Assembly: GCA_042095055.1 (NCBI GenBank)
Contig: JBELBZ010000007.1
Span: 20,673-84,672 of the forward strand
Reading direction: 5' to 3'
Length of the DNA: 64,000 nt
Source: Crocinitomicaceae bacterium
Lineage (GTDB): Bacteria; Bacteroidota; Bacteroidia; Flavobacteriales_D; Sanyastnellaceae
The notes below the pieces were generated by a model. That model was not told the origin of the DNA, ran no database searches, and saw nothing but the letters and a program-made list of their open reading frames with translations. A program made the position numbers and the translations under genes. Positions 18,948 through 53,671 of the stretch are shown here, piece after piece; within the stretch, counting starts at the first letter, position 1; each line of letters starts with the position of its first letter.

Positions 18948-19631
18948 TCAGCATTCTGTGCCAAAAGCACTCAACAGCTGTAGCACATCAGAAACGGTCA
19001 CTGCGCCATCGCCATTGACATCGGCTGAACAGCTCTCAAGACAACCAAAGTCTGAAAGCAGCACCAAAACGTCGGACACGCTGATCAGCAGGTCTCCGTT
19101 GAGATCCAAGGGACATGAGGCTTCTTCCGGACTGAGGATGCCATCGCAATTGTTGTCCACACCGCTGGCATTGGCTGGGGCGCCAGGGAACACCTCGGAA
19201 TTGTTGTCGTCACAGTCGCAAACGGTGGTCTCCCCGTCTCCATCCATGTCCACGATGCCCGCACAGGTTTCGAAATCTGCCTGGCAATTCGCCAAAACAC
19301 AAGCTTCGCAGTCCGCGGTGCTTCCGAAACCACACACGAGCAGACAGTTGTTCTGAGCGCAGACGCTTTGCTCCGCAAAGCAGCCCACACAACCCGTGCT
19401 CATCGTGGGAATGCCCGCTGCGATGCAACTGGCAAAGCAACTTTGGAGGTCCCCAGCAAAAATGCAGTCAAAGCCGCATGAGAATACCGCGTCGTTGACC
19501 AGGTCACCTTCATTGCACAGCAAATTGAAGTCCAGCGAGTCACATTGTGCTTCCATGGATTGCGGGACGGTCCACAGCCCAAGCAACATCAAGAATGGAA
19601 TGCAGTTAAAGAGGCTTGAATATTGGCTCAT
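18948..19631 (-). CDS. secreted Cys-rich protein with MopE-like metal-binding motif and dockerin-like C-terminal module
   Basis: Signal-like MSQYSSLFNCIPFLMLLGLWTVPQSMEAQ; about 20 Cys in the next 100 aa; DMDGDGETTVCDCDDNNSEVFPGAPANASGVDNNCDG; ends with the double DxDGDG module. Confidence 0.6.
   Translation of the reverse strand: MSQYSSLFNCIPFLMLLGLWTVPQSMEAQCDSLDFNLLCNEGDLVNDAVFSCGFDCIFAGDLQSCFASCIAAGIPTMSTGCVGCFAEQSVCAQNNCLLVCGFGSTADCEACVLANCQADFETCAGIVDMDGDGETTVCDCDDNNSEVFPGAPANASGVDNNCDGILSPEEASCPLDLNGDLLISVSDVLVLLSDFGCLESCSADVNGDGAVTVSDVLQLLSAFGTEC
18951..19115 (-). other. dockerin-like 4-Cys double DxDGDG C-terminal module
   Basis: CPLDLNGDLLISVSDVLVLLSDFGCLESCSADVNGDGAVTVSDVLQLLSAFGTEC, then stop. 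Confidence 0.8.
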
Positions 19632-19655
19632 GTGGTATAAACAAAAATCCAAACT

Positions 19656-23340: not shown

Positions 23341-24792
23341 ATGAAATGGATTCCGGGCTTGTCCCTTCTTTGCTGCATGGCTCCAGCGATTTTGGCAGCG
23401 CAAGACGTGACGTTTCACGCCGACGTGGCCCCCATTGTATTCAATCATTGTACTTCATGTCATCGGCCTGGGGAAATTGGCCCCATGCCTTTCACGAATT
23501 ATGGTGAGGTCGCGGCTTACGGGGAGTTCATCGAGTACGTCACATCCATAGGATATATGCCTCCGTGGTCACCTGATGCGTCCTACAGTCATTTTGTGGG
23601 CGAGAATGTCCTGACTGCGGGTCAATTGGAAACGCTCAGCGCATGGGTGGCCGCAGGCAAACCCGAAGGCGACCCCGCGGACAATCCCGGTCTACCCGAA
23701 TTTCCGGACGGAAGTCAAATTGGCACTCCTGACCATGTGCTCGCGATGGACCAGCCGTACACGCATGCAGGCGACATGTCCGAGCAGTACCAGGTCTTCG
23801 TCTTGCCTTCGGGGTTCGATGCGGCGGCTTCCATTCGTGCACTTGAGGTACAGCCCGGAAACCACAATGTGGCTCACCACGCCATTCTCGGTCTGGATGT
23901 CTCGGGAACAGCCACTGTCCTCGATGCTGCTGACCCGGCCCCGGGCTACGAGAGCTTTGGCGGTTTTGGCTTCAATGCTGAGAGCTCCTTCTTTGGAGCG
24001 TGGGTTCCCGGAGCCCTTCCTGTGGCATATCCTCCGGGCATTGGCCGCACGATTCCAGCGGGGGCTGACGTGCTGTTGCAGATGCACTACGGCCCTTCTT
24101 CGGTGGACGAAGTGGACCAGACCGAGATCAATGTGTTCCTGTCCAATGAGCCCATTGAGCGTGAAGTATTGACGGTCATCATGGGGCCCCAGCACCTCGA
24201 TGCGCCTTTTGTCCTGCCGCCCAATCAAGTCTCGTCGTTCCATGGCACCATGCCGGTGACCGCAGATGTCAGCCTGCTGAGTATCGCGCCCCACAGTCAC
24301 CTGATCGGGTCCTCTTGGAAGGTGTACGCCACTTCCCCGGGCAATGCAGACACCATCCCTTTGATTTCAATACCCTCTTGGGATTTCAATTGGCAGGGGT
24401 ATTTCACCTTCCCGCACCTGACAAAGGTTCCTCAAGGCTACACGCTCCACGGTGAAGCCACTTATGACAACACTGCCGACAACCCATTCAATCCAAGCGA
24501 CCCGCCACAGTGGGTGTATTTCGGTGAAGAGACCCAAGACGAGATGTTTTTTGTCTTCATCGATTTGGTGGCCTTTGAAGAGGGCGATGAAGAGATTGCA
24601 CTCGGGCCAGATACGGCGTCCTGCGATGGAGACCTCACGGGTGACAACCTCGTGGGGGTTTCTGACGCCCTGCTTTTGCTGAGTGAATTTGGATGTCAAG
24701 TCGGATGCACTTTGGATTTGGACGGTGACAATGCAGTGACCGTTTCAGACGTGCTGTTTTTGTTGGGTCAATACGGGGCCACATGCAATTGA
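23341..24792 (+). CDS. secreted heme-c (CxxCH) + PHM/DBH-like copper monooxygenase fusion, dockerin-like C-terminal module
   Basis: Start ATG 23341 (MKWIPGLSLLCCMAPAILAAQ). CTSCH at 23449-23463. HH (NVAHHAILG), LLQMHYG, HSH (24292-24300, IAPHSHLIG) and DEMFFVF match the CuH/CuM ligand pattern of peptidylglycine hydroxylating monooxygenase. Confidence 0.7.
   Translation: MKWIPGLSLLCCMAPAILAAQDVTFHADVAPIVFNHCTSCHRPGEIGPMPFTNYGEVAAYGEFIEYVTSIGYMPPWSPDASYSHFVGENVLTAGQLETLSAWVAAGKPEGDPADNPGLPEFPDGSQIGTPDHVLAMDQPYTHAGDMSEQYQVFVLPSGFDAAASIRALEVQPGNHNVAHHAILGLDVSGTATVLDAADPAPGYESFGGFGFNAESSFFGAWVPGALPVAYPPGIGRTIPAGADVLLQMHYGPSSVDEVDQTEINVFLSNEPIEREVLTVIMGPQHLDAPFVLPPNQVSSFHGTMPVTADVSLLSIAPHSHLIGSSWKVYATSPGNADTIPLISIPSWDFNWQGYFTFPHLTKVPQGYTLHGEATYDNTADNPFNPSDPPQWVYFGEETQDEMFFVFIDLVAFEEGDEEIALGPDTASCDGDLTGDNLVGVSDALLLLSEFGCQVGCTLDLDGDNAVTVSDVLFLLGQYGATCN
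24622..24789 (+). other. dockerin-like 4-Cys double DxDGDG C-terminal module
   Basis: CDGDLTGDNLVGVSDALLLLSEFGCQVGCTLDLDGDNAVTVSDVLFLLGQYGATCN, then stop. Confidence 0.8.
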
Positions 24793-25262: not shown

Positions 25263-25302
25263 TCTCATCTGCACTTTGTTTTTCTCGTTTTAATTTCCAA
25301 CC

Positions 25303-26832
25303 ATGAAGACAGCGCTATCCTTTGCCCTCCTGCTCGCTCTTGGAGCAACCACAGGTTGGGGTCAGGTCACCTATCACGCCGATGTGGCGCCCATCATCCA
25401 CAATGCTTGTATGGAGTGTCACCGTACTGGAGAAATTGGCCCCATGCCTTTCACCAATTACGAGGAGGTGTCGGCATATGGCCCTTTCATCGAGTATGTG
25501 ACTTCAATCGGCTACATGCCGCCTTGGACACCCGATGCCGACTACAGTCATTTCGTGGGTGAGCGGGTGTTGTCCGCGGAAGAAATCGAAACCATCAGCG
25601 CATGGGTGGATGCCGACATGCCCGAAGGAAACCCTGCCGACAATCCTGGAGCACCTTTTTTTCCAGAGGGAAGCCAAATTGGCGAGCCCGACTTCGTGTT
25701 TAGCATGTCGGAGCCCTACGCCCATGGCGGGGACATGACCGACCAATATCAGGTCTTTGTAATGCCCACTGGGTTTGAACAGGACATGACCGTGAGGGCA
25801 CTCGAAGTGCGCCCTGGCAATGGGGCCATCGCGCATCACGCTGTCCTCGGTTTGGACATTGAAGGCGTTGCAGAAAACCTGGACGCCCAAGATCCTGAAC
25901 CAGGGTATGAAAGCTTTGGTGACTTTGGGTTTGATGCTTACCAAAACTTCTTTGGTGCTTGGGTACCCGGTGCGCAAACCTTGGTCTACCCCGAAGGCAT
26001 TGGCAGGGTCATTCCCGCACAAAGTGACCTCTTGATGCAGATGCATTACGGGCCCAATGCAGCGGAGGAGTCTGACCAAACCGAAGTCAATGTGTTCTTG
26101 ACGGAGGGGCCCATCGACAGGGAAGTGGAGACAGGAATCATGGGGCCGTGGACCTTGGGTGAACCGTTCTTCATTCCCCCCAATCAAGTCAAAACCTTTC
26201 ACGGCACCTACAACATCCCTGTGGACCTGAGCTTGATCAGCATTGCTCCGCACAGCCACCTGATTGGAAACTCATGGGAAGTGTTCGCCACAAGCCCCAA
26301 CAACCAAGACACCATCCCATTGATTTCCATACCCGCTTGGGACTTCAATTGGCAGGGCTTTTTCACATTCCCATACATGACCAAAGTGCCGGGTGGTTAT
26401 ACCCTGCATGGCATTGCGTCCTATGACAACACCTCTGACAATCCGTTCAATCCAAACGACCCTCCTGTCATGATTGAATACGGTGACAATACAGGTGACG
26501 AGATGTTTTTTGTCTTCTTCGACTACGTGCTCTACGAGGCGGGTGACGAGGACATTTCGCTGGAGACCCCCTTACTTTCCAGCGTAGAGCCTCTGGAACG
26601 CGAGGCGCCGGGCGTTACACTTCAGCCCAACCCCGCCTCAAATCGGATTCAGTTGTTGGCCCATCCACAATTTGTAGGGTCCTCCTGGTCATTGCGCGAT
26701 TTGGGTGGTCGGGAAGTCATGTCAGGGCAATTCAACTCAGGCAATGACCGAATATTGACCGGTGCCCTCCCGGATGGCGTTTACCTGTTTCAGGGCCCTC
26801 AGGGCACAGAACGGGTGGTCATCCAGCATTGA
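25303..26832 (+). CDS. secreted heme-c + PHM/DBH-like copper monooxygenase fusion, T9SS type-A CTD (paralog of 23341..24792)
   Basis: Signal MKTALSFALLLALGATTGWGQ; CMECH at 25408-25422; AIAHHAVLG, LMQMHYG, IAPHSHLIG, DEMFFVF. C-terminus VTLQPNPASNRIQLL...GVYLFQGPQGTERVVIQH. Confidence 0.7.
   Translation: MKTALSFALLLALGATTGWGQVTYHADVAPIIHNACMECHRTGEIGPMPFTNYEEVSAYGPFIEYVTSIGYMPPWTPDADYSHFVGERVLSAEEIETISAWVDADMPEGNPADNPGAPFFPEGSQIGEPDFVFSMSEPYAHGGDMTDQYQVFVMPTGFEQDMTVRALEVRPGNGAIAHHAVLGLDIEGVAENLDAQDPEPGYESFGDFGFDAYQNFFGAWVPGAQTLVYPEGIGRVIPAQSDLLMQMHYGPNAAEESDQTEVNVFLTEGPIDREVETGIMGPWTLGEPFFIPPNQVKTFHGTYNIPVDLSLISIAPHSHLIGNSWEVFATSPNNQDTIPLISIPAWDFNWQGFFTFPYMTKVPGGYTLHGIASYDNTSDNPFNPNDPPVMIEYGDNTGDEMFFVFFDYVLYEAGDEDISLETPLLSSVEPLEREAPGVTLQPNPASNRIQLLAHPQFVGSSWSLRDLGGREVMSGQFNSGNDRILTGALPDGVYLFQGPQGTERVVIQH
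26611..26829 (+). other. T9SS type-A C-terminal sorting domain
   Basis: GVTLQPNPASNRIQLL...SLRDLGGREVMSG...LPDGVYLFQGPQGTERVVIQH. Confidence 0.75.
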
Positions 26833-27568: not shown

Positions 27569-27571
27569 GGC

Positions 27572-29910: not shown

Positions 29911-32900
29911 TCATTCCTCGCAGCCTTGACCGTACAAAGCCAACAAAGCCAAGATGTCATTGGCAGAAACAGCACCGTCTCCTGTGATGTCCACCGTGCA
30001 TTCAGACGAACATCCGAACTCCGACAACACGGCAAGGATGTCTGTGGCCCCAAAAAAACCGTCTCCATCGAGGTCCTCAGGGCATTGGCTTTCCCAGCAG
30101 GTGAAATCGCACATATCATTGGAGATCGAGGCCGATGGATCAAAATTGCAGGCGGTGCTGTCTGTGCACCCGACAACAGCAGGCAAGGGCAAGCAAAACG
30201 ACCCCCCCACTCCGCTGGAGAAGCCTATGCCTGCCGCACTGGTGTCCGTCACTGACCAAATTCCAACTCCTCCCATGGAGGCCACGACCAGATCCCCTTC
30301 CATACCGCAGTTGGTGCTGGTAAAACCGTTGCTCCCCCGGTCGACGAGGATCACTTCATAACAGCCGTGGGTCAGGCACACAGTATCCACGGTGGGTGCT
30401 TCGGGGACAAAGTGTTGCCGGCGATGCCATGACACACCCGTCGAATCTGACAGCGCCCAGGCCGTCTCCATCGGGTGGCAATCCGCTGTGGTGGTCACAA
30501 CGACTGGGCCGGTGCCCACCCTGTGCTCCCAGGTGACGCCCAAAGCATCGTTTTCTGAAATGGCATCTACACCGGAGGTCAGTTCGCCCGCTGCTAAACC
30601 GCCATGGAGTCCAACCACCTCGAGGATGCGCACAACCAGTTCATTCTTGTGGCCCACTGTGCCGCGATTGACGTTGGGCCAAGGCAATGAGGCCTCTTGA
30701 TTTGGTGCCAACAACATCCCGTATTGGACCGTGTCGATGCCGTTCCACAGCAGCGTCATGGCCGCCAAAGTGTCTGAGCCAGCATTGCGTGCTGTGGCCG
30801 TCACATGAAGGGGTCCTGCACACTGTGTGGCCTGGTGCCCGTGAATGCCAGTCAATGCCGCGTCTCTTGCTGGCGGCGTAAACAGCGGTGCGCGCCAAAT
30901 CCCACTTCCGTAAGTCGCCAGAAGCAATTCTCCTGTCGAAGACCGCACCCCAAGGTCACTGCACAACACCTCTGGCAGCCCAGTCTTGTATGGCGTCCAC
31001 AGGTCTGAACCGCTGTTGAGCGCATAAACGCCAGCATCCGTACCTGCATAGAGGTCGCCACTTTCTGGGTGCCGGGCCAGGGTATTGACAGGCAAATCCG
31101 GCAGCCCCTCTCCTGCGTCTGTCCACGTCAATCCGGCATCGGAGGTCTTCCATACGCGCTGGCCCTCTTCATATCCTCCGAATGACATCCAGAACACATC
31201 CGCATCTGCGTGGTCGAAGACCACATCGAGGATGGGCAAACCGGGCAGGTCTGAAAGGGGGGTCCAATGCTCTAAGTTCTGCGTGGCAAAGGCAAACGCG
31301 CCGCGGGCCACGACTGCAGTGCTGTCATCCGATGGCGCCAAAGCCAAGACTTCCATTTCTGCGCCTGACAGCGCGCTTGTTTGCTCCCATGTTTCGCCTT
31401 GATTGTCGGTCCAGTAGAGCCTGTGTTTGGCGATAAAAATGCGGTCGGGGTTGGAGGGAGCGTATGCCATAGGCGTGTTCCAGTCTCCCCTTTCATTGAC
31501 CCCTTCCCCGTTGCTTCCCAGCCAGAGGTCCCAGGTCCATCCGCCATCCAATGAGAGGTGGGCCTTGCCGAAGTATTCCGCAGCGACCAAGGTGTCGGGT
31601 TCGTTGGGATCGATGAGGCAGTGAAATCCGTCGGCTCCGATGACCTGGGCATGAATGTCGTCTGCGAGCAGGTTGATGCCATTGTCTTGCCATCCCGATA
31701 TCAAGCGGTCTGGCCTGCTGTTTGCAAAACCGAGGTTGTACACCTGGCCCACATTGAGGCCCTCTGTTAAGGTCTCAAAACCGTTTTCGCGTTTGCGGGA
31801 TACCCCGCCGTCATGGGCGCTGACCCAATGGTTGCTGCCAGGCACGAAACTGAGGGCGTGGTGGTCGGCATGAACGAAATCTGCGTCTTGTTCACCAAAC
31901 CAATGGCCTATGCACGCCCAAGTGTCACCTCCGTCATGGGATTCCCAAATGTTGACGCCACCAGCGATGATGTGATGTTCGTCCACTGGATCGATGGCGA
32001 GCGCCAGGTCATAGAACCCTTGGCCTCCAAAATCTGCGCCTGCATAGGTCCACCCCAAAAGGTTGGGCAAGTCTGGAACCTCGGTATAGGTCTGCCCGCT
32101 GTCTTGGCTGACATAGAAGCCTTGGAGCCCTTGCGATCCGCTTTTTGCAGCTATTGCCGCCAAAACCTGAGGGTTTGATGCCGATGCGGCCAAGGTGTAC
32201 CTGCTCACAGAGAATGTGGAGGGCAAACCTTGAACTGCATTCCAATGGCGCCCGCCATCGGTGGAACGCAGCAGTTCCCCTGGACGCAAGGCTGCGTGCC
32301 AAACAGCGGAGTCTCCCGGATGTGGAATCAGGTCAGAACAGATCCCAGAGTATGTCAACGAGAAGGTCTCTCCATTGTCCTCGCTCAGCCATATTCCGTC
32401 GCTGGTGGCGACCAAAATGTGATGTGGGGCACCCACTTTTCGGTGTACCCTGCTGCATGTGGCCGACTCTGAAAGTGCGAATGTGAGTCCTGTTGTTTGC
32501 CATGTTGCCCCCATATCCGAGGTGGACATGAGTCCTATCCCATAGGCGCTGCCGAAGTCAGAATCTCCCGTAGCAGCCAATATGCTCAATGAATCGGCAG
32601 GGTGCAAGGCCACATCGGACACCCCCATTCCAGCCCAATCTTGTGTCCCCAAAAGGTTCCAGTGTTGTCCTGAATCTTCAGAACGCCAAAGCCCTCCACT
32701 TGGCGCGCAGGCATACCATTCGGCCGTGTCTTGGGCGGATACGACCACGCGGTTTACCCGGCCAGCACCCCCCACAAGCGGTGAGCCTGTGGGAATGGCT
32801 TGTCGCCAAACAGCCTCAGGTTCTGAATCACGTGCGGCCCTGCCCATCCGTTCCCATTGCGTGGCCTCCCAAGGCGCAGCGGCTTTGAAGGGGCTTGCAC

Positions 32901-33156: not shown

Positions 33157-33253
33157 CGTGGTTTTGGTTGCCACTTGAAGGTGCACCTGTCGTCAGACAG
33201 ATGTCCACACCAAGGCCTCAAGTGGTTGACCTTGGGGTGGTGGCTGCATGAAT

Positions 33254-36202
33254 TTAGTCGGGGCAAGCCAGTCCAAAGGTGGACAATGCCACCAATATAT
33301 CGCTGGCCGCGACCATGCCGTCTCCATTCAAATCTGGGTCACCACATTCAGATTGACATCCAAAGGCACCCAGCATGACGAGAATGTCGGCTGCCCCGCG
33401 CAAGCCGTCGCCATTAAAGTCTCCTGGACACACCTGTTCATCCTCGTCACAAATCCCATTTTCATTGAGGTCGTTTAAACAGCGGCCCAGGCAGTCCACC
33501 GTAGCCTCACCGTCCACAACCGCGTCGGGAAAGAGGTCTTCAGGGGCAGCACAACTCCCATTGTCCAAAGTAGCCATGGGATTGTAGTTGCAGTAGTTCT
33601 CGTCAGTGCACCCGGCACAACTGGTGAATTCACATGAACTGTCGTCATCTGTGGCTTCCCCGTCAAAGTTGCAGGCGGTTGAATCCGTGCAGCCCAGCTG
33701 TTCCTCCTCGTCACATATTCCATCGCCATCGTTGTCGTTCAGACATTGGTCATCGCAATCCACATAACCTTTGTTGAACAGATCCACGGGGAATTGGCAT
33801 GTGCCATCGTCAATCAGGGCAGTGGGGTCATAGTTGCAAGCCACCGAAGAGGTGCATCCAGAACAACTTGAGTAGTCGCAGGAACCGTCAGAGACCCACG
33901 CACCGGCGTCGTGGTTGCATGCTGCAGGGTTGATGCAACCGGCACACGATGTGAAATCACACCCTCCGTCATCGATCGTGGCAGTGCCCAAAAAGTTGCA
34001 CGCCAGGGCATCCATGCACCCGCTGACTTCTTCTTCATCGCACACCCCATTGGCATTGATGTCGTTGTAGCAAGTTCCACTGCAGTCCACAAAGGCTGAG
34101 GGGTGCAAATCCTGAATAAACAGGCAGGTCTCATTGGAGGGTTGGGTGAATGCCGCCTCGAAGTTGCAGGCTTCATTGTCCATGCATCCGTAACAATCAA
34201 AAGTGCAACTGCCATCGTCAGCATCGGCATTGGCGTCATAGTTGCAGGCCTGAGGGATGGTGCAACCGTCGATCATGCTCAGTCCAGCCCTTTCTTCTCC
34301 AGATGTGGCCATCCCTTCACCTTCGCAGCTTGCGAAATCACAGGCACCCACTTTATAGAGGTCGGCATCGGGGTCATAATTGCAGGCAAATCCCAGTGGA
34401 CAAGCTGCGCAGGTGATAAAGTCACATGTGCCGTCATCCGCGTTGGCCGCAGGGTCGAAATTGCACGCCTTGGGTGAAGTGCAGCCATCGTACCTGCAAG
34501 CGAAATCAATGGTGGCACAAGCTTCGTAGTTGTCAGCTGTAGTGTCGGTACAGCCTGTTATCCGGAGTGCCGGGCTAAAGCTGTTGGAGTTGCACAATTC
34601 AACTTGGCCGTCGCGGTCCACCCCAGCAACCTGCAGTTCAGAATTCGAAAAGGTGTTGTTGAGCAGAGCGGTAGAAATGTCGGCTGATTGGGTAAAGGCT
34701 ACGCTGTGCAATTGGAGGGTGCAGTCGTTCATGGCAAAGGTGTCTGACTCCCCTCCTGCACTCAGTTTGACAGCCTCCCCGCCTGCATTTTCAAACAGGC
34801 AGGCTTCGACCAACGTGGCGCCAGAATCTGTCCCGTCGTGGGCCACCTCCAATCCAGTTGTATTCTCCTTGAGCGTACTGTTTGATACGGTTAAACTGCC
34901 AGACCGGTGAATCACCCCTTGAGCGAATCCCGACACTTTGACTTCCTGTAATTCGGTCATGTGACGCGCCACAACACCGCTGCTGGGTGCCGCATTGCTG
35001 CCTGCGATGACGCTGTTTTTGAGGGTGAGGCCCGCGGCACTGCTTGTGACATCTACAGCATTGCCGGCGGTGGCGTTTATTCGAACCCCATCCACCACAG
35101 GGTGGCCAGCCTGGACGATGATTCCATCCAGCACAGATTCGACATCGCGCTGCGCTGCATTGGTCCCTGTCAGTCCAGCATTCGCTCCTACCAAGTTGAT
35201 GCTTGCTCCCACTTCGATGGGACCTTCATCGAAGGTTCCGGGCTCCAGCTTGATCGTGGTATTGTCGTCTGCAACGTTGACTGCACTTTGGACGGACATT
35301 CCAGGAAATACAGTCATGTCCTGGGTGACCATGCTGTAAGAAACCAGTGTTTGAATTTCCGCGCCGAGATTGGCAGCGACTTCGCGCACATTGTCGTTGT
35401 GCACGAGAATGCAACCCGTGAGGTCGTCACCTGGAGCTTCTAACAAGTACTCGAATCCATCTGCTGTCATGCTGATGGGGAACCCGCTACCGGAACCTAC
35501 TGGAACCAAGGCGGGGTCAATCTGCACAATGACACCGCCGCCACCGAGGTCCTGGGGCCCTTCCAAATCGAGTTCACCCACAAAGGAAATGGCATTGACC
35601 TCTTGGTCATAATAGTTCGACTCCATGATGGCGATGTCGCCGAAACCATTGCCCGCGCTCGTAATGTTTTCAATCACAGTATTGGAACAGGTGCTCAGCG
35701 CCAAGCCAAAACCGATGGTGCTGTTGCTGACTGTGAGGTTTTTCAGGGTGTTCTGGCTGGGACCCGTGAGTCCATTTAAATCGATGCAAGTCTTGGTGGA
35801 TTCACTGACCACAATGTCCTGCAGGGTGAGCCCTGTGATGCCCGGTTCACTGTGCACTGCATATGCGTCATTGGCGCCTCCGCCCACAATGGTCAGGTCT
35901 TGCAGGGTAATGTTGTTGCTGGACAAGGTGATGCCCCAGCCGTCCATGGTGGACACGTCGATAATGGAGGTCCCATTGGGATCGCCAGCCAAAGTCAAGG
36001 GCATTGAAATGCTCACATGTTCTGTGAACCTCGATGCTGCCAGCTGAATGAAGTCTCCAGCGGCCGCCTCCGCCATCGCAGCAGCAATGTCATCATAGCT
36101 GGCACCGGTGGTCACGTTCAATACGGGCACAATGGGCGTCACTTGCGCTTGTACACAGTGCACCACAGTAAACAGGAAAAGCGCAGTAAGAATTCGCAGC
36201 AT
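33254..36202 (-). CDS. giant secreted beta-helix protein with Cys-rich module array and dockerin-like C-terminal module (982 aa)
   Basis: Signal MLRILTALFLFTVVHCVQAQ. N-terminal about 550 aa is beta-helix-like and paralogous to 36346..40902. Then about 11 Cys-rich modules, 3 DxDxDG units, and the terminal double DxDGDG module. Confidence 0.75.
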   Translation of the reverse strand: MLRILTALFLFTVVHCVQAQVTPIVPVLNVTTGASYDDIAAAMAEAAAGDFIQLAASRFTEHVSISMPLTLAGDPNGTSIIDVSTMDGWGITLSSNNITLQDLTIVGGGANDAYAVHSEPGITGLTLQDIVVSESTKTCIDLNGLTGPSQNTLKNLTVSNSTIGFGLALSTCSNTVIENITSAGNGFGDIAIMESNYYDQEVNAISFVGELDLEGPQDLGGGGVIVQIDPALVPVGSGSGFPISMTADGFEYLLEAPGDDLTGCILVHNDNVREVAANLGAEIQTLVSYSMVTQDMTVFPGMSVQSAVNVADDNTTIKLEPGTFDEGPIEVGASINLVGANAGLTGTNAAQRDVESVLDGIIVQAGHPVVDGVRINATAGNAVDVTSSAAGLTLKNSVIAGSNAAPSSGVVARHMTELQEVKVSGFAQGVIHRSGSLTVSNSTLKENTTGLEVAHDGTDSGATLVEACLFENAGGEAVKLSAGGESDTFAMNDCTLQLHSVAFTQSADISTALLNNTFSNSELQVAGVDRDGQVELCNSNSFSPALRITGCTDTTADNYEACATIDFACRYDGCTSPKACNFDPAANADDGTCDFITCAACPLGFACNYDPDADLYKVGACDFASCEGEGMATSGEERAGLSMIDGCTIPQACNYDANADADDGSCTFDCYGCMDNEACNFEAAFTQPSNETCLFIQDLHPSAFVDCSGTCYNDINANGVCDEEEVSGCMDALACNFLGTATIDDGGCDFTSCAGCINPAACNHDAGAWVSDGSCDYSSCSGCTSSVACNYDPTALIDDGTCQFPVDLFNKGYVDCDDQCLNDNDGDGICDEEEQLGCTDSTACNFDGEATDDDSSCEFTSCAGCTDENYCNYNPMATLDNGSCAAPEDLFPDAVVDGEATVDCLGRCLNDLNENGICDEDEQVCPGDFNGDGLRGAADILVMLGAFGCQSECGDPDLNGDGMVAASDILVALSTFGLACPD
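33257..33430 (-). other. dockerin-like 4-Cys double DxDGDG C-terminal module
   Basis: CPGDFNGDGLRGAADILVMLGAFGCQSECGDPDLNGDGMVAASDILVALSTFGLACPD, then stop. Confidence 0.8.
33431..34555 (-). repeat. in-frame array of about 11 Cys-rich modules plus 3 DxDxDG units
   Basis: From ...GCTDTTADNYEAC... to ...NENGICDEDEQV. Same module as in 36520..39216. Confidence 0.85.
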
Positions 36203-36221
36203 GACAAAAAGGTCTTAGCTA

Positions 36222-36229
36222 CAAATATA
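36222..36229 (-). promoter_or_regulatory. putative -7 box (TATATTTG) for 33254..36202
   Basis: Minus sense TATATTTG fits TAnnTTTG, 19 nt upstream of ATG 36202. No clear -33 TTG at canonical spacing. Confidence 0.3.
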
Positions 36230-36295
36230 CGAGATTAAGCGATTAATTATACGTATTCGAGGGTCAATTTTTTTGGGCCTGTCGCTTTCAGCCAT

Positions 36296-36320: not shown

Positions 36321-36345
36321 TTATTCATGGTTCAAATAGCGTGTT

Positions 36346-39300
36346 TCACTCACAGTATGTCCCGAAGTAACTCAGCATTGCCAGCACGTCTGAAGCCGTT
36401 ACGAAGCCGTCCATATCCAAATCAGCGTCACCGCAGTCAGCGGCGCAACCGTAAGCTGCCAGGACTACCAGCACGTCGCTGGCAGTGCGCACGCCGTCTT
36501 CATTGAAGTCGCCAGCACACACATCGTCCTCGTTGCAAATGCCATCTCCATCTTCGTCATTGTTATTGACCGTTCCATCAGGGTTGCAGGTGGCACATTC
36601 TGTCTCTGGAAATACACAGGACCCGTCGTTGTCTGTGGCATTGGTATTGAAATTGCAGGCCAACGGATCATCGCAACCGCTGAGTTCTAATTCATCACAG
36701 ACGCCATCGCCATCCGCATCATTGATGCACCCACCTGAGCAGTCGAGATATGGCTCTTCAGGATAAGTGCACGATCCGTCTTCAATGGCCGCACCGGGTT
36801 CGTAGTTGCAGGCTGTTGCATCGGTACACCCTGTCTCGTCTTCATCACAAATGCCATCACCGTCAGCATCATTCAGGCATTCGCCAAAACAGTTGAGATA
36901 GTCTTTGCCGTACAATGAGGCCGGTGTTGTGCACGATCCATCATCGAATTGGGCGGCTGAATTGTAATTGCATGCGCTGGGGTCTGTACAACCACCACAG
37001 CTTGAGTATTCGCAGGACCCATCGTCAAAGTCGGCTGATGCCGTATAGTTACACGCCAAAGGATCTGTGCAGGCACTCAACTCGTCTTCGTCGCAGATTC
37101 CGTCGTTATCCGAATCGTTCACACATTCTCCGCCGCAATCCAAATTGGTGACGTTGTACAGGTCCAATACGTAGATGCAACTTCCATCATCGGTGATGGC
37201 CCCTGAGGCATAGTTGCAACCTTCGGGGTCTGTGCAACCTTGACAAGATGCATAGTCACAAGAACCGTCATTGATGGTCGCCGATTCCACGTGGTTGCAC
37301 GCTCCAGGGTTGGTACAACCTGCACATGAGATGTAGTCACAAGAGCCATCATTTTCTGTAGCTGTATCCATGAAATTACAGGCAGTAACGTCATCACAGC
37401 CTCCAATTTCTAGGGGGTCACATACGCCGTCTCCGTCGGTATCGGAGAGACAGTCCCCATCACAGTTCAAATAGGTTTCAGTGGGATAAGTGCAGCTGTT
37501 GTTGATGGTGGCATCGGGATTGTAGTCACATGCTGTGGGGTCTGTACAACCCAAGCATGATACATAATCGCAATCGTTGCTTGGATTTGTAGCAGCTGCA
37601 TCAAAATTGCACGCTGTGTTGTCCATACATCCCGAGCAAGACAAGAAGTCGCACGTGCCGTCATCTTGGGTGGCCAAGGCATTGTAATTGCAAGCGCCTG
37701 CATTGGTGCATCCTGAAATCTCATCAGGGTCGCACACGCCGTTGCCGTCTGCATCTTCCAGGCAGTCACCGTTGCAGTCTACTGCATCGCTTCCATAAAG
37801 ATCGTTGGGGTAAATACAGGCACCATCTAAGCTTGCGGCTCCGTCATAGTTACAAGCTTCTATATCCATGCAGCCCGCACATGTCTCATAGTCACATGAC
37901 CCATCGTTGATTTCAGCGGAAGCATCATAGTTGCAGGCCTCGTTGTCGGTGCACCCAGCGCAGGAGGTGAACTCACATGTTCCATCATCTGTGATGGCCT
38001 GCATGTCGTAGTTGCATGCCAGCGCGTCTGTGCATCCCGTGACCTCTTCCTCGTCACAAATCCCATTGCTGTTTGCGTCGTTGTTGCATTCTCCGGCACA
38101 ATTGACATTGGGGTTTCCATAGAGCTCTAAGGGGTATGTACATGTGGATGTCGACAGAGTCGCCGAAGCATCATAGTTGCAGGCGCTGGCATTGGTACAG
38201 CCCGCACAGCTGTCGAATTCGCAATCGGCATCTTCTCCAAAGTTGCAGGCAAAAGAAAGGTTGCACACCTCCAAGGAGATCATGCCTGCAGACTGTCCAT
38301 AGCTGCAACCAAAGGTCAATTGTGGCAGAATATCTGGGTCGTAGTTCGATGCAGCAGGGTCACCACAGCAACTGAGGTAATCACATGTGGTGCCGTCGTG
38401 AATGAGCACCGTCGGATCATAGTTACAGAATCCTTCAATGGCACAACCTGCACATGAGGTGTATTCACAATTGCCAGCGTCGACACCAGCAGCAGCATCA
38501 TAATTGCATGCGCCTTGATCTGTGCACCCGCCATAGATGCATGAACCATCTTCTACTCCGGCGCCTGCGTTGAAATTGGTCGCCGTTTCATCGGTACAAC
38601 CAAATACGCGGCACGAGCCATCGTCAACGGTTGCATCAGCATCGTAATTGATCGCATCAGGATTCGTGCAGCCCCGGCAACTGGTGAAATCGCAATTGTC
38701 GGCATCGATGATGGCAGACTCGTCATAGTTGCATGCCCTCGGGTTCAGGCATCCGGAGCAGCTGTCATATTCACAATCTCCCAAATTGAAATTCGCATCC
38801 ATGTCATAGTTGCAAGCATTGGCATCGGTGCAACCATAGAAATAGCAAAGGCCATTGTTCAAGTTGGCGCTTGGATCGTAGTTGTCGGCCTCAGGATTCG
38901 TGCAGCCTGGTAACAGACAGGAACCATCGTCATAAATCGCAGAAGATTGGTAGTTCAATGCTTGTTCATCCGTACATCCGCGGCATGAATTGAACTCACA
39001 GCTTCCTGCTTCAAGGGTAGCAGAGCTGTTGTAATTACAGGCAATGGGGTTCAAGCAACCAGAACATGACTGGTATTCACAGCTTCCGTCTTCTGCTCCT
39101 GCAGCAGCGTTGTAATTGCAGGCGTTTTCATCTGTGCAACCGCCATATAGACAGTTGCCGGAATTCATGGAGGCGCACTGCTCATAGTTTACTGCAGACG
39201 GGTCATCACAGGCATCAATCGAAATGACTGGATTGCTGAAGTCATTTTGCTCACAAAGTGCAACGCGCGTTGCAAGGTCTGTGCCTATGACCTGCTCTTC

Positions 39301-50743: not shown

Positions 50744-50771
50744 TACCCCGTGATGTCAGTAATTTGGGGGC

Positions 50772-53648
50772 ATGACTCAAACCTGGCGACCCTCCCTTTG
50801 CTTGTCTGTGTTGACCCTGTTGTTTTCGGCCTTACAGGGCCAAAACAGCACCGTAAACATCACTGTTGATGGACTCGCTGCGGGCGATGTTGCCGCATTG
50901 ACCCTGGAACGCGGTGTCGGCGGATTGTTTGACGCTACAGTGATCGGGCAAGGTGTGGATGTTCCTGTGCCGCATTCTTTTGAAGTAGAGGCTGGTCCGT
51001 GGATGTTGTCCTTGGATGCGCTGGGCTACATCACTCCTGCTGCACAAACCATAGAGGTCGATGGAACGGTGAATGTGACCTTGGATGTCGCCGCACTCCA
51101 AGGTGACAGCAGCACATATACGTTCACTTGGGAAGAGGATGGAAGCTTTGCTGGTCATGCTACCGAGTTCGTGCCAGCTGATCCTCCGGTGATCGAAGTG
51201 TTGGGCGCCTCGTATGACGTCCCTGCAGGATTCAGCGCCCAGACCCTCTTTCAGCAATATGGATTTGTCTTGGACGATCAAGAATTGGCATGGACCACAG
51301 ACGACGCATTTAAACTGCACCAGACCATTTCTTCCCTGCCGTACCCCCGTGTAAATGCCGATGAGGCGGGAACCCCGGTTGTAGCGGTATGGCGGTTGAC
51401 GGAGGACATGCTGGACGGCGACTACATGGCAGAGACCATCGCCGATACGGAAGTCATCACCATCTCCAAGGATGCCTTCACCTATGCTGCTCCATTGGTT
51501 GTCAATTTCGATGGCGATCAAGGGCAATTCTTTAGCCGCCGATTGTTCAAGGCGCTCCTGTCGCACCTCACCAATGAAGGCTCCAATGCCGGACTTGTCC
51601 AAAACATCGCTTCTGAGCGCTACGGCATAGAATTCATGACGCCCAGTCCTGAGCTTGAAGACTTGATGAGCGAGACCCAAACGAATTTTCAGCCCTTCCC
51701 CGCTTGGGAGAAGCTGCAGATCATGGGCATGCTCGAAGAATTCCCGGAGGGCATGCGCAAGCAAGACGGATTGTCCAAACTGGTGAGGCGCATCAACGGA
51801 CAGCCCAACCCCTTCTACCCCACCGCCCCTGCCATCGCGTGGACGGGCATGGAGACCATTGAGTGGATGGAAAGCGGGTTTGCCAACTTCTCCATGGACT
51901 ACATCCACCGCTTGATCCTGCACGAAAAGGCCCACTTCCTATGGGAGTACACCTTTGACGAAGACCTGAGGGCTGACTGGACTTCATTGGGGGAATGGTT
52001 TGAAGACCCCAACGCGCCCAGTGGATGGAGCACCACCCTGACCACCGAATTCGTCAGCGCTTATGCCCACGCCATGAACCCCAACGAGGACATGGCCGAA
52101 AGCATCGCCTACTACATCTCAAATCCGCAAGTGCTGATGACACATGCGCCAGACAAATACGACTTCATCCGAGATCGCGTGATGCACGGTGCGCGTTATG
52201 TGGCGATGATCACGGAGGAATTGACGTTTGAAGTGTTGAACCTGTTTCCGGATTACACCTACCCTGGCAAAATCGTCGGCACCGATGTTCAGGTCAACGG
52301 AAACCCCAGTGATGACAAAGTATTGACCCTGACCATCCACCTGCACAGCGACGACCCCGCCCAAGATGGGGCCGTGAGTGGGCAGGTCCGGTTTGTCAGC
52401 GCAGTAGGTACCATCTTCGATATGTGGCTGTCCCCTGCAAACGGAAGCAGCGACTCTGTGTTGACGGGCACATTGACCCTCAACAAGCACATGAAGTCCG
52501 GGTGGTGGAACTTCGATGGCCTCCACATCTGGGACGCCGTGGGCAACGACCGCTATGAGAGTCCCGCGACCATCGGTTTGCGTCTGTTCCTCAACAATCC
52601 CTTGGAGGACATCACGCCTCCCGAGTACATCGATGATTCCTTTGTGATGGAGGAGGTCGCTGGCATCCAAGTCGGGGACGGCACCGACGGCCCTGCAACC
52701 GTTGATGGCATTCAAATCGAATTTGATACTTGGGATAAAATCCCCCTGAGCCGTGGATTGACCCGCATGACCTTTCCCACCATGGATCCAGATTACGGAC
52801 ACCGGTATTCCATGGACATCCAATCGAATGCGTTTGAGTCCAACGGTTACGAGGAAGTAAAGCACCACGAGATGGTATTGCCTGTCCCCCACTACTTTCC
52901 CACGGGTCACTACACTGTCAATTTCTCTGCTGCCGATGACGTGGCGGGCAATTCCAGCGCCATCTATTTTACCGGTGACCCCAATTATTCCAATGCTGAT
53001 GGGGTGCACATCTTCGCCGAAGACCGGGATTCAGTCTACATGGAAACGGCCTACCCTGACCTCTTGGCACCTGAGGTGGATTTGAACAGCTTTTCAATTG
53101 TGGCCACGCCCAGCAATCCTGACCTTCCCAATGGAGAAACGCTGGTGGAGTTCACTTTGGCGTTTCAGGACACCAGTGACTTTGATGGATTTGCTTCAGG
53201 TGTTCGGGACCTCACGTATACCCTGAGGGATCCTCTGGGTGATGAATTTCACTTCAGTGCTTGGGAAGAGTTTGGCGGCGCCAACTTCTTTTATGCGGTT
53301 TACCCACCTGAAGGCGCGAACACCTGGACCACCACAACCTTGACGGCACTTTTGCCGGCAGGTTCTGCGCCCGGAACATGGGGGGTGTCGGCCCTCGCCA
53401 TTCGAGACCGCGCCCTCAATGTGAAGCGGTACAGCTTTGTAGAATACGTTCAGTTCGTTTTGGATGTGGCCGATTGTCCCGCTGACCTCGATGGCAACGG
53501 CCAAATTGGTGCTCCGGACTTGCTGATGGTGCTCGCTGAGTTTGGCTGTCTGCAAGACTGTGGAATTGCGGACATCGATGGAAATGACCAGGTTGATGTG
53601 GGCGATGCGCTGTTGTTCCTCGCCGACTTCGGATCGGCCTGCGACTGA
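50772..53648 (+). CDS. large secreted protein with HExxH motif and dockerin-like C-terminal module
   Basis: Signal MTQTWRPSLCLSVLTLLFSALQGQ; LILHEKAHFLWEY (HEKAH at 51921-51935) followed by NEDMAESIAYYI. Ends with the double DxDGxx module. Confidence 0.6.
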   Translation: MTQTWRPSLCLSVLTLLFSALQGQNSTVNITVDGLAAGDVAALTLERGVGGLFDATVIGQGVDVPVPHSFEVEAGPWMLSLDALGYITPAAQTIEVDGTVNVTLDVAALQGDSSTYTFTWEEDGSFAGHATEFVPADPPVIEVLGASYDVPAGFSAQTLFQQYGFVLDDQELAWTTDDAFKLHQTISSLPYPRVNADEAGTPVVAVWRLTEDMLDGDYMAETIADTEVITISKDAFTYAAPLVVNFDGDQGQFFSRRLFKALLSHLTNEGSNAGLVQNIASERYGIEFMTPSPELEDLMSETQTNFQPFPAWEKLQIMGMLEEFPEGMRKQDGLSKLVRRINGQPNPFYPTAPAIAWTGMETIEWMESGFANFSMDYIHRLILHEKAHFLWEYTFDEDLRADWTSLGEWFEDPNAPSGWSTTLTTEFVSAYAHAMNPNEDMAESIAYYISNPQVLMTHAPDKYDFIRDRVMHGARYVAMITEELTFEVLNLFPDYTYPGKIVGTDVQVNGNPSDDKVLTLTIHLHSDDPAQDGAVSGQVRFVSAVGTIFDMWLSPANGSSDSVLTGTLTLNKHMKSGWWNFDGLHIWDAVGNDRYESPATIGLRLFLNNPLEDITPPEYIDDSFVMEEVAGIQVGDGTDGPATVDGIQIEFDTWDKIPLSRGLTRMTFPTMDPDYGHRYSMDIQSNAFESNGYEEVKHHEMVLPVPHYFPTGHYTVNFSAADDVAGNSSAIYFTGDPNYSNADGVHIFAEDRDSVYMETAYPDLLAPEVDLNSFSIVATPSNPDLPNGETLVEFTLAFQDTSDFDGFASGVRDLTYTLRDPLGDEFHFSAWEEFGGANFFYAVYPPEGANTWTTTTLTALLPAGSAPGTWGVSALAIRDRALNVKRYSFVEYVQFVLDVADCPADLDGNGQIGAPDLLMVLAEFGCLQDCGIADIDGNDQVDVGDALLFLADFGSACD
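53475..53645 (+). other. dockerin-like 4-Cys double DxDGxx C-terminal module
   Basis: CPADLDGNGQIGAPDLLMVLAEFGCLQDCGIADIDGNDQVDVGDALLFLADFGSACD, then stop. Confidence 0.8.
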
Positions 53649-53671
53649 ACATCGGAGACTACCTTCGGGCC

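What the first reader, a model, noticed from the sequence alone, without database searches (positions are those of the whole stretch)
18951..53645. Seven unrelated secreted proteins end in the same four-cysteine, double DxDGDG (dockerin/EF-hand-like) module, never together with a T9SS CTD
Seen directly in the translations. Six proteins (genes at 18948, 23341, 29911, 33254, 36346, 50772) end within 0-3 residues of the stop with a 55-58 aa unit. That unit is C-x2-D-[LF]-[DNT]-G-[DN]-x3-[GST]-x2-D-[VIL]-L-x2-L-x2-[FY]-G-C-x3-C, followed by a second D-[LIV]-[DNT]-G-[DN]-x-x-V-x3-D-[VIA]-L-x2-L-x2-[FY]-G-x2-C. A seventh protein (41079) ends with a single half-unit. The passenger domains are unrelated: a heme-c/PHM-like oxygenase, a BNR propeller, two beta-helix giants, an HExxH protein, a MopE-like Cys-rich protein and a 149-aa mini protein. 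All have N-terminal signal peptides. Other secreted proteins in the same window (25303, 43146, 60924, probably 59036) instead end in canonical T9SS type-A CTDs, and no protein has both tails. Four of the seven genes are contiguous (29911-41528). Established knowledge: dockerin type I is a tandem pair of 22-aa Ca-binding F-hand segments that bind cohesins, and T9SS CTDs are 70-100 aa beta-sandwiches. Inference: this behaves like a portable C-terminal anchoring or sorting tag. It could be a disulfide-stapled dockerin variant docking to an unidentified cohesin-like surface receptor, or an alternative export or attachment signal parallel to the T9SS CTD. I recognise no cohesin in this window.
Basis: partly seen in the sequence, partly recalled or inferred. 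Interest (0 to 1): 0.85.

Follow-up and report, generated by a model that had tools for sequence, protein, structure and literature searches.

The report
Four-cysteine dockerin tails on secreted proteins
Six secreted proteins of an uncultured marine Flavobacteriales bacterium end in the same small calcium-binding docking domain, a four-cysteine "GC-type" dockerin that is already curated, and related proteins carry a type IX secretion tail in its place, so it looks like an interchangeable attachment module whose binding partner is still unknown.

Summary
Six ORFs end 0-2 residues before the stop in a 55-58 aa module with four invariant cysteines and two D-x-[DNT]-G-[DN]...D loops. A seventh ORF ends in a half module, and no other copy exists in the six-frame translation.

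The module is a dockerin. The profile aligns end to end with a solved dockerin (2y3n_B, E 8e-7), and the AlphaFold model (pLDDT 92.5) superposes on it (TM 0.88). It also matches NCBIfam NF041540, "GC-type dockerin", end to end at borderline scores, so the domain type is already curated.

The portability inference is well supported. g23341 (dockerin) and g25303 (T9SS CTD) are 68% identical paralogs that differ only in the tail. In two passenger families, close homologs carry the dockerin and remote homologs carry PF18962.

The "alternative export signal" reading is disfavoured. Near-identical modules occur internally or N-terminally before a FISUMP domain, in tandem arrays in Phycisphaerae, and twice inside one protein that also ends in a T9SS CTD.

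No cohesin was found in 40 window proteins, and the rest of the genome could not be scanned. The best reading is a disulfide-stapled, Ca-dependent docking module with an unidentified receptor. It is a new member of a known kind, of moderate interest.

The parts
18951..19115 (-). GC-type (four-Cys) dockerin module at the C-terminus of the 234-aa Cys-rich MopE-like protein (ORF 18948-19652)
   Evidence: Sequence is CPLDLNGD...FGCLESC...DVNGDG...FGTEC, followed directly by the stop. Tail alone scores NF041540 31.4 bits (cutoff 29) and PF00404 21.9 bits. The passenger hits PF11617 at 29 bits.
24622..24789 (+). GC-type dockerin module at the C-terminus of the CxxCH / PHM-like protein (gene 23341-24792)
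   Evidence: A1 HMM score 86.6 bits. The passenger is 68% identical to 25303-26832, which ends in a T9SS CTD instead.
29914..30084 (-). GC-type dockerin module at the C-terminus of the BNR/Sortilin-VPS10 propeller protein (ORF 29911-33186)
   Evidence: Tail alone scores NF041540 32.8 bits. PF15902 hits the passenger. Thirty-six close homologs keep the tail, while remote homologs carry PF18962.
33257..33430 (-). GC-type dockerin module at the C-terminus of the beta-helix protein (ORF 33254-36202)
   Evidence: A1 HMM score 97 bits. It is a paralog of 36346-40926.
36349..36519 (-). GC-type dockerin module at the C-terminus of the 1526-aa beta-helix / Cys-repeat protein (ORF 36346-40926)
   Evidence: Tail alone scores PF00404 24.3 bits, the only one of the six above the Pfam GA of 22.9.
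41439..41525 (+). Single half unit (one F-hand flanked by two Cys; its loop DIVPDG lacks the position-3 ligand) at the C-terminus of the 149-aa protein (41079-41528)
   Evidence: Matches A1 profile positions 26-58 at 20.4 bits. It is conserved in the orthologs of L001-L006, L009-L011, L014, L015 and L017. The exact protein is present in 70 blocks of the public assembly collection.
53475..53645 (+). GC-type dockerin module at the C-terminus of the 958-aa HExxH protein (50772-53648)
   Evidence: Orthologs in 13 GTDB species (74-98% identity) all keep it at the extreme C-terminus. The gene sits in a + strand run: TonB-dependent receptor (47421), DUF4249 (49787), this gene, then an SGL propeller (53672).
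26626..26829 (+). Comparator: T9SS type A CTD of 25303-26832, the paralog of 23341-24792
   Evidence: Tail alone scores TIGR04183 24.3 bits (cutoff 23). Homologs carry precomputed PF18962.
60927..61133 (-). Comparator: T9SS type A CTD of the Kelch protein 60924-62822
   Evidence: PF18962 38 bits (GA 27) and TIGR04183 29.5 bits (cutoff 23).
43149..43367 (-). Comparator: probable (sub-threshold) T9SS CTD of the M36/M4-like peptidase 43146-46160
   Evidence: Tail alone scores TIGR04183 19.9 bits against a cutoff of 23. It also resembles the C-terminus of NF038113.

Best explanation
The shared tail is a genuine dockerin domain of the four-cysteine 'GC-type'. It has two loop-helix F-hands with complete Ca2+-ligand sets, probably stapled by two disulfides once the protein has left the cytoplasm.

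In this uncultured marine Flavobacteriales lineage it is fused to Sec-exported proteins as a portable, non-covalent docking module. Evolution has repeatedly exchanged it with the T9SS type A C-terminal domain on the same passenger.

The most likely function is Ca2+-dependent attachment of the cargo to a cohesin-like receptor of the cell envelope or of a secreted scaffold. It would then be an alternative way of tethering enzymes and adhesins, not an export signal.

**Shown:**
- dockerin homology and predicted fold;
- conservation of the Ca ligands and of the four Cys;
- terminal position in this lineage;
- signal-peptide-like N-termini;
- tail exchange with the T9SS CTD;
- internal and tandem occurrences elsewhere.

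**Inferred:**
- Ca binding;
- disulfides, with the likely pairing C1-C4 and C2-C3 deduced from the two-fold symmetry of dockerins;
- existence and location of a receptor;
- surface localisation.
For: **Dockerin identity.**
- The A1 profile aligns over its full length with the B. cellulosolvens Cel48 dockerin 2y3n_B (E 7.8e-7).
- The AlphaFold2 model has pLDDT 92.5. Its best Foldseek PDB hit is 2y3n_B (TMq 0.88, rmsd 1.3 A), followed only by other dockerins.
- NF041540 'dockerin_GC' aligns 1-67/67 with all six tails at 19-33 bits. PF00404 scores 13-24 bits.

**Conservation.** In 224 distinct related modules, the four Cys are 98-100% conserved and the loop positions 1, 3, 5 and 12 are 94-100% D/N/T.

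**Portability.**
- 23341 and 25303 are 68% identical over 399 aa and diverge exactly where the tails begin.
- Of the 120 best homologs of 23341, 66 end in the dockerin (0-1 aa from the end). Of the 54 without it, 47 full-length proteins end in a T9SS CTD and the rest are truncated.
- An NJ tree places one dockerin-tailed protein (P0483) inside the CTD clade, which implies at least two swaps.
- In the 29911 family, 40 of 120 homologs end in the dockerin. About 70 remote homologs have PF18962. None has both.

**Binding module, not export signal.**
- The module precedes a FISUMP domain in P0200 and P0169.
- It forms tandem arrays in Phycisphaerae-type proteins.
- P0250 has two internal four-Cys dockerins and a terminal T9SS CTD.

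**Precedent.** In-silico models of non-cellulosomal cohesin-dockerin systems exist for related diderm phyla (PMC8542988, PMC6461901).
Against: - No cohesin (PF00963) was found in 40 window proteins at E<=0.05-1, nor in two other dockerin neighbourhoods.
- The rest of the genome could not be scanned, so the receptor is hypothetical.
- A Sec-exported protein without a CTD or a lipobox has no known route across the Bacteroidota outer membrane. Surface docking therefore needs an extra, unshown step. The alternative is that the proteins stay periplasmic.
- Ca binding and disulfides are inferred only. The Cys-Cys distances of the model could not be read.
- The tree is a plain NJ tree without support values.
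Confidence: 0.6

Rival explanations
1. The tail is a C-terminal sorting or export signal. A dedicated machinery working in parallel to the T9SS recognises it and then cleaves it or uses it for covalent attachment.
For: - In this lineage the module is always within 0-2 residues of the stop, including in 13 species of 50772 orthologs.
- It replaces the T9SS CTD on the same passengers.
- Within the window no protein has both tails.
Against: - Near-identical modules lie directly after the signal peptide (P0169) or internally (P0200), upstream of a FISUMP domain.
- Phycisphaerae-type proteins carry up to three or more copies in tandem.
- P0250 has two internal copies and its own T9SS CTD.
- The fold is that of a binding module with intact Ca sites.
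- No candidate sorting enzyme lies next to the genes.
Confidence: 0.12
2. The module has no protein partner. It would be a Ca2+-dependent module that binds anionic envelope or exopolymer glycans, self-associates, or simply keeps and stabilises the protein in the oxidising periplasm. Swapping a CTD for it would then relocalise a paralog from the surface to the periplasm.
For: - No cohesin was found.
- No outer-membrane export route is evident for these proteins.
- Small secreted proteins made only of dockerin repeats exist (P0131, P0138).
- From my own knowledge (Peer et al. 2009, which is not held in the library), many genomes have dockerins without recognisable cohesins.
Against: - The passengers are typical surface or extracellular proteins: giant beta-helix proteins, a BNR propeller, S8, GH16 and M43 enzymes.
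- P0250 shows that the module is exported by the T9SS as part of a surface protein.
- Every structurally characterised dockerin binds a cohesin (established knowledge).
Confidence: 0.2
3. The dockerin-tagged proteins dock in the periplasm onto a cohesin-bearing T9SS substrate and are carried out with it (piggy-back export), ending up on a CTD-anchored scaffold.
For: - The T9SS is generally held to move folded cargo (established knowledge).
- A CTD-bearing cohesin scaffoldin has been proposed in silico for Cloacimonadota (PMC8542988).
- The tags replace CTDs on the same passengers.
Against: There is no cohesin-CTD protein in the window, no experimental precedent for hitch-hiking through the T9SS, and no direct evidence here.
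Confidence: 0.08

Closest known systems
NCBIfam NF041540 'dockerin_GC' (GC-type dockerin domain-anchored protein)
   Same: It has the same four-Cys layout: C-x2-D ... G-(x)-C ... C-x2-D ... G-x(1-2)-C. The model aligns end to end (1-67/67) with all six tails, and two of the six score above the curated cutoff when scanned alone. The Phycisphaerae-type relatives recovered here show the same topology with WG-x-C.
   Different: The window modules are about 10 residues shorter, and they use [FY]G-C and [FY]G-x2-C instead of WGPC. In the full-length proteins they all fall below the cutoff, so standard annotation leaves them as 'hypothetical protein'. Here they sit in a T9SS-bearing Bacteroidota lineage. 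No paper in the held library uses the name.
Type I dockerin of cellulosomes (Pfam PF00404; e.g. 2y3n_B, 1ohz_B)
   Same: It has two tandem Ca-binding loop-helix segments, the same predicted fold (TM 0.88) and 36% identity to 2y3n_B. It is mostly C-terminal on secreted enzymes.
   Different: It has four invariant cysteines and a shorter inter-helix linker (C-x3-C). Only one of the six passes the Pfam gathering score. The host is a diderm marine flavobacterium, the passengers are not cellulases, and no cohesin has been identified.
Predicted non-cellulosomal cohesin-dockerin systems of diderm phyla: Ca. Stygibacter (Cloacimonadota, PMC8542988) and the 'planctosome' (PMC6461901)
   Same: Signal-peptide enzymes (S8 and other peptidases, glycosidases) carry C-terminal dockerins in FCB or PVC bacteria. 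In Stygibacter the proposed scaffoldin is itself anchored by a T9SS CTD.
   Different: Those genomes encode recognisable cohesins, whereas none is known here. Both systems are in-silico models. Neither paper describes a four-Cys signature or exchange with the CTD.
T9SS type A C-terminal domain (TIGR04183 / PF18962)
   Same: It occupies the same position on homologous passengers and is found on the same kinds of secreted proteins in the same genome.
   Different: It is an unrelated fold, a roughly 70-aa beta-sandwich against a two-helix Ca-binding module. There is no sequence match. The dockerin also occurs internally, in tandem, and together with a CTD.

Membership tests
Dockerin type I (Pfam PF00404) | Tandem pair of ~22-24 residue segments, each a Ca-binding loop (D1, D/N3, D/N5, D12) followed by a helix | tested here: met
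   Both loops of all six modules carry D1, [DNT]3, [DN]5 and D12. In 224 related modules these positions are 94-100% conserved. DSSP on the model shows helices at residues 15-23 and 43-51.
Dockerin type I (Pfam PF00404) | Score at or above the Pfam gathering threshold (22.9 bits) | tested here: inconclusive
   Tails scanned alone score 13.3-24.3 bits, and only 36346 passes. In full-length proteins the best scores are 16.6 and 14.6 bits. Among 57 relatives, 28 hit PF00404 at E<=1e-3.
Dockerin type I (Pfam PF00404) | Dockerin three-dimensional fold | tested here: met
   AlphaFold2 pLDDT is 92.5. The Foldseek top hit is 2y3n_B (TMq 0.88, rmsd 1.3 A, probability 1.00), and the next ~30 hits are nearly all dockerins. 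This is a prediction, not a solved structure.
Dockerin type I (Pfam PF00404) | A cohesin partner encoded by the same organism and bound in a Ca-dependent manner | not testable with these tools
   No PF00963 hit appeared in 40 window proteins or in the neighbours at L018 and L019. The rest of the 2.97-Mb genome (OX044365.1) could not be scanned.
GC-type dockerin (NCBIfam NF041540) | End-to-end match to the 67-position model | tested here: met
   All six tails align 1-67/67, from the first to the last Cys.
GC-type dockerin (NCBIfam NF041540) | Score at or above the curated cutoff (29 bits) | tested here: inconclusive
   Tails alone score 31.4 and 32.8 bits (pass) and 19.3, 22.1, 22.1 and 23.1 bits (fail). 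In full-length proteins the scores are 24.7, 12.4 and 10.4 bits or no hit.
GC-type dockerin (NCBIfam NF041540) | Gly-Cys signature after each helix, giving four conserved Cys | tested here: met
   The motif is [FY]G-C after helix 1 and [FY]G-x2-C after helix 2. All four Cys are invariant in the six tails and 98-100% conserved in 224 relatives. That this motif is what defines the family is inferred from its name only; the curators' text was not available.
T9SS type A CTD (TIGR04183 / PF18962) | C-terminal ~70-aa beta-sandwich matching the CTD models | tested here: not met
   None of the seven tagged proteins gives a CTD hit. The tails are helical. The CTD models do hit 60924, 25303 and, weakly, 43146 in the same window.
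EF-hand (PF13405 / PF00036 / PF13499) | Helix-loop-helix with scores above the Pfam thresholds | tested here: not met
   The best score is 21.5 bits against a cutoff of 25. The hits cover only loop 2 plus its exiting helix. There is no entering helix.

The most novel reading that the evidence does not exclude
In marine Flavobacteriales the four-Cys dockerin may define a second cell-surface display system that runs beside the T9SS. Cargo that has lost its CTD would be tethered non-covalently and Ca2+-dependently to a cohesin-like receptor that is not yet recognised. The receptor could be a CTD-anchored scaffold, or a lipoprotein of a TonB-receptor complex such as the DUF4249 protein next to 50772. 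The cargo might even leave the periplasm by riding on that partner.
Probability: 0.15. Interest if true: 0.7.

Novelty: new member of a known kind. Interest (0 to 1): 0.4.

Why it matters
Dockerins are best known from Gram-positive cellulosomes. Here a divergent four-Cys form is used heavily: seven genes in 64 kb, on peptidase-like, propeller and giant beta-helix proteins. The host is an abundant uncultured marine Flavobacteriales lineage. Standard annotation misses the module, so these proteins are filed as 'hypothetical'.

The clean exchange between this module and the T9SS C-terminal domain on the same passengers shows that the cell has two alternative fates for one protein family. That raises a concrete, testable question. 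What does the dockerin bind in a diderm cell, and how does the cargo reach it?

Finding the receptor would add a display mechanism to Bacteroidota surface biology. It would also improve annotation of marine polymer-degrading bacteria. If no receptor exists, the case bears on the old puzzle of dockerins without cohesins.

Tried and rejected
- **Chance or recent duplication: rejected.** The HMM finds only these seven sites in the six-frame translation. The DNA copies are 50-57% identical.
- **EF-hand protein or FG-GAP repeat: rejected.** There are only sub-threshold partial hits to the loop.
- The search for related loci found no stretch conserved enough to search with. It gave the organism and 13 syntenic loci but no new genomic territory.
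- **Cohesin hunt by neighbourhood: no result.** Two long contigs carrying other dockerin tails (L018, L019) showed no PF00963. They also showed that the 'small dockerin proteins' are frameshift fragments of long-read assemblies.
- **Exact look-up of 33254: failed.** The look-up of encoding contigs found no record. 41079 was found.
- **Literature.** The phrase 'GC-type dockerin' occurs in no held paper. Peer et al. 2009 is not held. Searches for dockerin with T9SS or Flavobacteriales found no description of this module.
- **Local T9SS-CTD HMM.** An HMM built from the tails of the 25303 family found 25303, 60924 and, weakly, 43146. It did not find 59036 or 53672.
- **Disulfide pairing: not checked.** Model coordinates are not returned by the tool.

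Full report

Yes. Translation of the seven ORFs and a motif scan of all six frames confirm it. Six proteins end in a 55-58 aa unit whose last Cys is 0-2 residues from the stop:

| ORF | strand | module coordinates |
|---|---|---|
| 18948-19652 | - | 18951-19115 |
| 23341-24792 | + | 24622-24789 |
| 29911-33186 | - | 29914-30084 |
| 33254-36202 | - | 33257-33430 |
| 36346-40926 | - | 36349-36519 |
| 50772-53648 | + | 53475-53645 |

- The alignment of the six (A1) has 15 invariant columns. These include four Cys, both first and twelfth loop aspartates, and the helix leucines.
- ORF 41079-41528 (+) ends in one half unit that matches profile positions 26-58.
- An HMM built from A1 and run over the six-frame translation of the window finds exactly these seven sites. 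The full copies score 86-97 bits.
- The six DNA copies are only 50-57% identical. They are therefore old and maintained by selection, not recent duplications.
- All seven proteins start with a hydrophobic segment ending in (A/G)Q, the usual Bacteroidota signal-peptidase I context. The CTD-bearing proteins of the window start the same way. This was judged by inspection; no predictor was run.

**2. Corrections to the description**

- The passengers are diverse but not all unrelated. 33254 and 36346 are paralogs (35-46% identity over most of their length).
- 29911, 33254, 36346 and 41079 share a ~27-aa Cys-rich repeat (GCTDxxACNYDxxAxxDDGSCxY). The T9SS-tailed 60924 has it too. 36346 has at least 22 copies. 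No Pfam family matches this repeat.
- Of the proteins said to carry T9SS CTDs:
  - 60924 passes the curated thresholds (PF18962 38 bits, TIGR04183 29.5 bits).
  - 25303 passes when its tail is scanned alone (24.3 against 23).
  - 43146 is sub-threshold (19.9 against 23).
  - 59036 gives no CTD hit. It is a choice-of-anchor J plus PHA-depolymerase protein with an unassigned ~50-aa tail.

**3. What the module is**

It is a dockerin.

- *By sequence.* The A1 profile aligns over its whole length with the solved Cel48 dockerin of B. cellulosolvens (2y3n_B, E 7.8e-7). Other dockerins and EF-hand proteins follow far behind.
- *By fold.* The AlphaFold2 model is confident (pLDDT 92.5; two helices at 15-23 and 43-51). 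Its best PDB match is the same dockerin (TMq 0.88, rmsd 1.3 A, 36% identity), followed almost only by other dockerins.
- *Against curated models it sits at the thresholds.*
  - Pfam Dockerin_1 gives 13-24 bits for the isolated tails against a GA of 22.9. One of six passes.
  - NCBIfam NF041540, 'GC-type dockerin domain-anchored protein', aligns 1-67/67 with every tail, from first to last Cys, at 19-33 bits against a cutoff of 29. Two of six pass.
  - In the full-length proteins none passes either model. This explains why public records call these proteins hypothetical or name them after the passenger only.
- *Status.* The four-Cys dockerin is already a curated domain type. The window carries a shorter, divergent Flavobacteriales form of it. 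No paper in the held library uses that name.

**4. Conservation and inferred chemistry**

That selection biases towards the motif.
- In these, the four Cys are 98-100% conserved. Loop positions 1, 3, 5 and 12 of both F-hands are 94-100% D/N/T. Ca2+ binding at both sites is therefore a strong inference.
- Compared with 2y3n_B, the inter-helix linker is four residues shorter and carries the C-x3-C pair.
- From the two-fold pseudo-symmetry of dockerins, I infer the pairs C1-C4 (N- and C-termini clamped) and C2-C3 (linker).
- The half unit of 41079 has the loop D-I-V-P-D-G, which lacks the position-3 ligand. This loop is conserved in its orthologs, and a similar one forms the first loop of P0483.

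**5. Where else it occurs**

- The exhaustive profile search found 19,457 cluster representatives at E<=1e-3 and 1,126 at E<=1e-10.
- Single-copy hits of about 80 bits with the [FY]G-C signature are almost always at the extreme C-terminus. In 117 of 141 proteins the last full copy lies within 5 aa of the end.
- Where named, these hits come from Flavobacteriales or Bacteroidota MAGs.
- A WG-x-C form comes from Phycisphaerae. It often stands in tandem arrays, and some small secreted proteins consist of nothing else.
- The organism of the window is an uncultured marine Flavobacteriales bacterium. The closed MAG OX044365.1 (K_MB5, 2.97 Mb) has a 98% identical locus, and 12 further GTDB species share the synteny.

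**6. Position and co-occurrence**

The module is not obligatorily terminal.

- In P0169 a near-identical four-Cys module follows the signal peptide directly. In P0200 it is internal. In both it precedes a FISUMP domain (PF09603, E 1e-28 and 7e-34). P0200 shares its N-terminal propeller with window gene 53672.
- Among 57 four-Cys dockerin proteins, none of the 25 most frequent Pfam families is Por_Secre_tail. The passengers include S8, GH16, M43, PAD, FG-GAP and beta-helix domains.
- One protein, P0250 (2175 aa), has a Bacteroidota-type signal peptide, six lamin-tail domains and two internal four-Cys dockerins. It also ends in a T9SS CTD of 36.7 bits.
- 'Never with a CTD' is therefore a strong tendency, not a rule. 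When both are present, the CTD takes the terminus and the dockerin is cargo.

**7. Interchange with the T9SS CTD**

This is the most informative result.

- *The 23341 / 25303 pair.* 23341 (dockerin) and 25303 (CTD) lie 500 bp apart and flank a redoxin gene. They are 68% identical over 399 residues without a gap. They diverge exactly after GDE(E/D)I(A/S)L, where the tails begin.
- *The 23341 family.* Among its 120 best homologs, 66 end in the dockerin (0-1 aa from the end). Of the other 54, 47 full-length proteins end in a T9SS CTD and the rest are truncated fragments. In an NJ tree of the passenger region, 61 dockerin forms make one clade. One more (P0483) nests among the CTD forms next to P0492, which implies at least two independent exchanges (no support values).
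- *The 29911 family.* The BNR/VPS10 family behaves the same way. Thirty-six close homologs (54-100% identity) and four distant ones (31-33%) end in the dockerin. About 70 remote homologs (29-35%) from diverse Bacteroidota carry PF18962. None has both.
- *Direction.* The CTD looks like the older state and the dockerin a lineage-specific replacement.

**8. Surroundings and the search for a partner**

- Pfam scans of 40 window proteins, including every large secreted one, give no cohesin. The remaining ORFs are housekeeping genes.
- Two other dockerin neighbourhoods have none either.
- The rest of the genome could not be reached with the tools. The existence of a cohesin is therefore untested, not disproved.
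- One contextual hint comes from 50772, which is an HExxH protein.
  - It lies in a co-directional run: TonB-dependent receptor, DUF4249 lipoprotein (lipobox LVGC), 50772, then an SGL propeller.
  - It weakly resembles the 'substrate import-associated zinc metallohydrolase lipoprotein' family (TIGR04549, E 0.04).
  - In that family the tether is a lipid. Here the dockerin may play that role.

**9. Mechanism and rivals**

- *Best reading (0.6).* The module is a Ca-dependent, disulfide-stapled docking domain that tethers Sec-exported proteins to a cohesin-like receptor not yet identified. It is an alternative to CTD-mediated anchoring.
- *Sorting-signal reading (0.12).* The internal, N-terminal and tandem copies, the combination with a CTD, and the occurrence of the same module in Phycisphaerae all weaken it. 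That Planctomycetota are outside the known range of the T9SS is established knowledge.
- *Partner-less reading (0.2).* Here the module binds glycans, self-associates or retains the protein in the periplasm. This stays open, because no cohesin and no outer-membrane route are known for these proteins.
- *Piggy-back export on a cohesin-CTD scaffold (0.08).* This is an attractive speculation, with an in-silico precedent for the scaffold in Cloacimonadota (PMC8542988).

**10. Comparison with what is known, and verdict**

- It works like a dockerin. It meets the structural and motif criteria of both Dockerin_1 and the GC-type dockerin. It fails or straddles their score cutoffs.
- The defining functional criterion, a cohesin partner, could not be tested.
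- I file it as a new (divergent, under-annotated) member of a known kind.
- Interest is moderate (0.4). The domain itself is ordinary and already curated. Three things give a specialist a concrete question about protein display in Bacteroidota: the repeated, clean exchange with the T9SS CTD; the heavy use in an abundant marine lineage; and the missing receptor and export route.

Noticed in passing
window 36346-40926 (-), 33254-36202 (-), 29911-33186 (-), 41079-41528 (+), 60924-62822 (-): A ~27-aa Cys-rich repeat (GCTDxxACNYDxxAxxDDGSCxY) occurs at least 22 times in 36346 and 8 times in 33254. It occurs once in 29911 and once in 41079, in both cases just upstream of the dockerin. It occurs twice in the T9SS-tailed 60924, and P0200 also has it. 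No Pfam family matches it. It looks like an unannotated disulfide-rich stalk repeat of marine Flavobacteriales.
   Followed up: partly
window 23341-26832 (+): Two 68% identical paralogs lie 500 bp apart and flank a redoxin / AhpC-TSA-like gene (24783-25262). Each has an N-terminal CxxCH heme-c motif and weak similarity to the C-terminal domain of copper type II monooxygenases. One ends in a dockerin and the other in a T9SS CTD. The function of this family is unknown.
   Followed up: partly
window 47421-54712 (+): A co-directional, tightly spaced gene run: a TonB-dependent receptor (CarboxypepD_reg + Plug), a DUF4249 protein with a lipobox (LVGC), the HExxH-dockerin protein, and an SGL-like beta-propeller. 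It resembles SusC-type import loci that carry an HExxH lipoprotein (weak TIGR04549 hit). The order is conserved in L001-L003.
   Followed up: partly
window 59036-60895 (-): A choice-of-anchor J domain is followed by an extracellular short-chain PHA depolymerase domain (NF050058, 144.6 bits against a cutoff of 150). 53672-54712 likewise has a CTD-looking tail without any hit.
   Followed up: partly
L017 (CAXQGL010000043.1): A contig assigned to a 'Nitrosopumilus sp.' MAG carries the Flavobacteriales 50772 ortholog (81% identity) and the 41079 half-unit gene. This is almost certainly a binning contaminant in that archaeal MAG.
   Followed up: no
P0005, P0041, P0062 and similar hits; loci L018, L019: Many 'small proteins' of 50-100 aa that consist only of the dockerin are C-terminal fragments of larger genes, broken by frameshifts in long-read metagenome assemblies. 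One example is a fragmented S8 peptidase upstream in L019. They are not free dockerins.
   Followed up: yes
P0250 (2175 aa, NCBI contig of 42 kb): This Bacteroidota-type protein has six lamin-tail domains, two internal four-Cys dockerins and a terminal T9SS CTD. It is the only case seen with both modules. It could be an adaptor or scaffold of the hypothetical docking system.
   Followed up: partly
window 41439-41525 (+); P0483: A variant loop, D-[IV]-V-P-[DN]-G, lacks the position-3 Ca ligand. It recurs in the conserved single half unit of 41079 and in the first loop of P0483. A lone F-hand flanked by two Cys might need to dimerise to form a dockerin-like fold.
   Followed up: no
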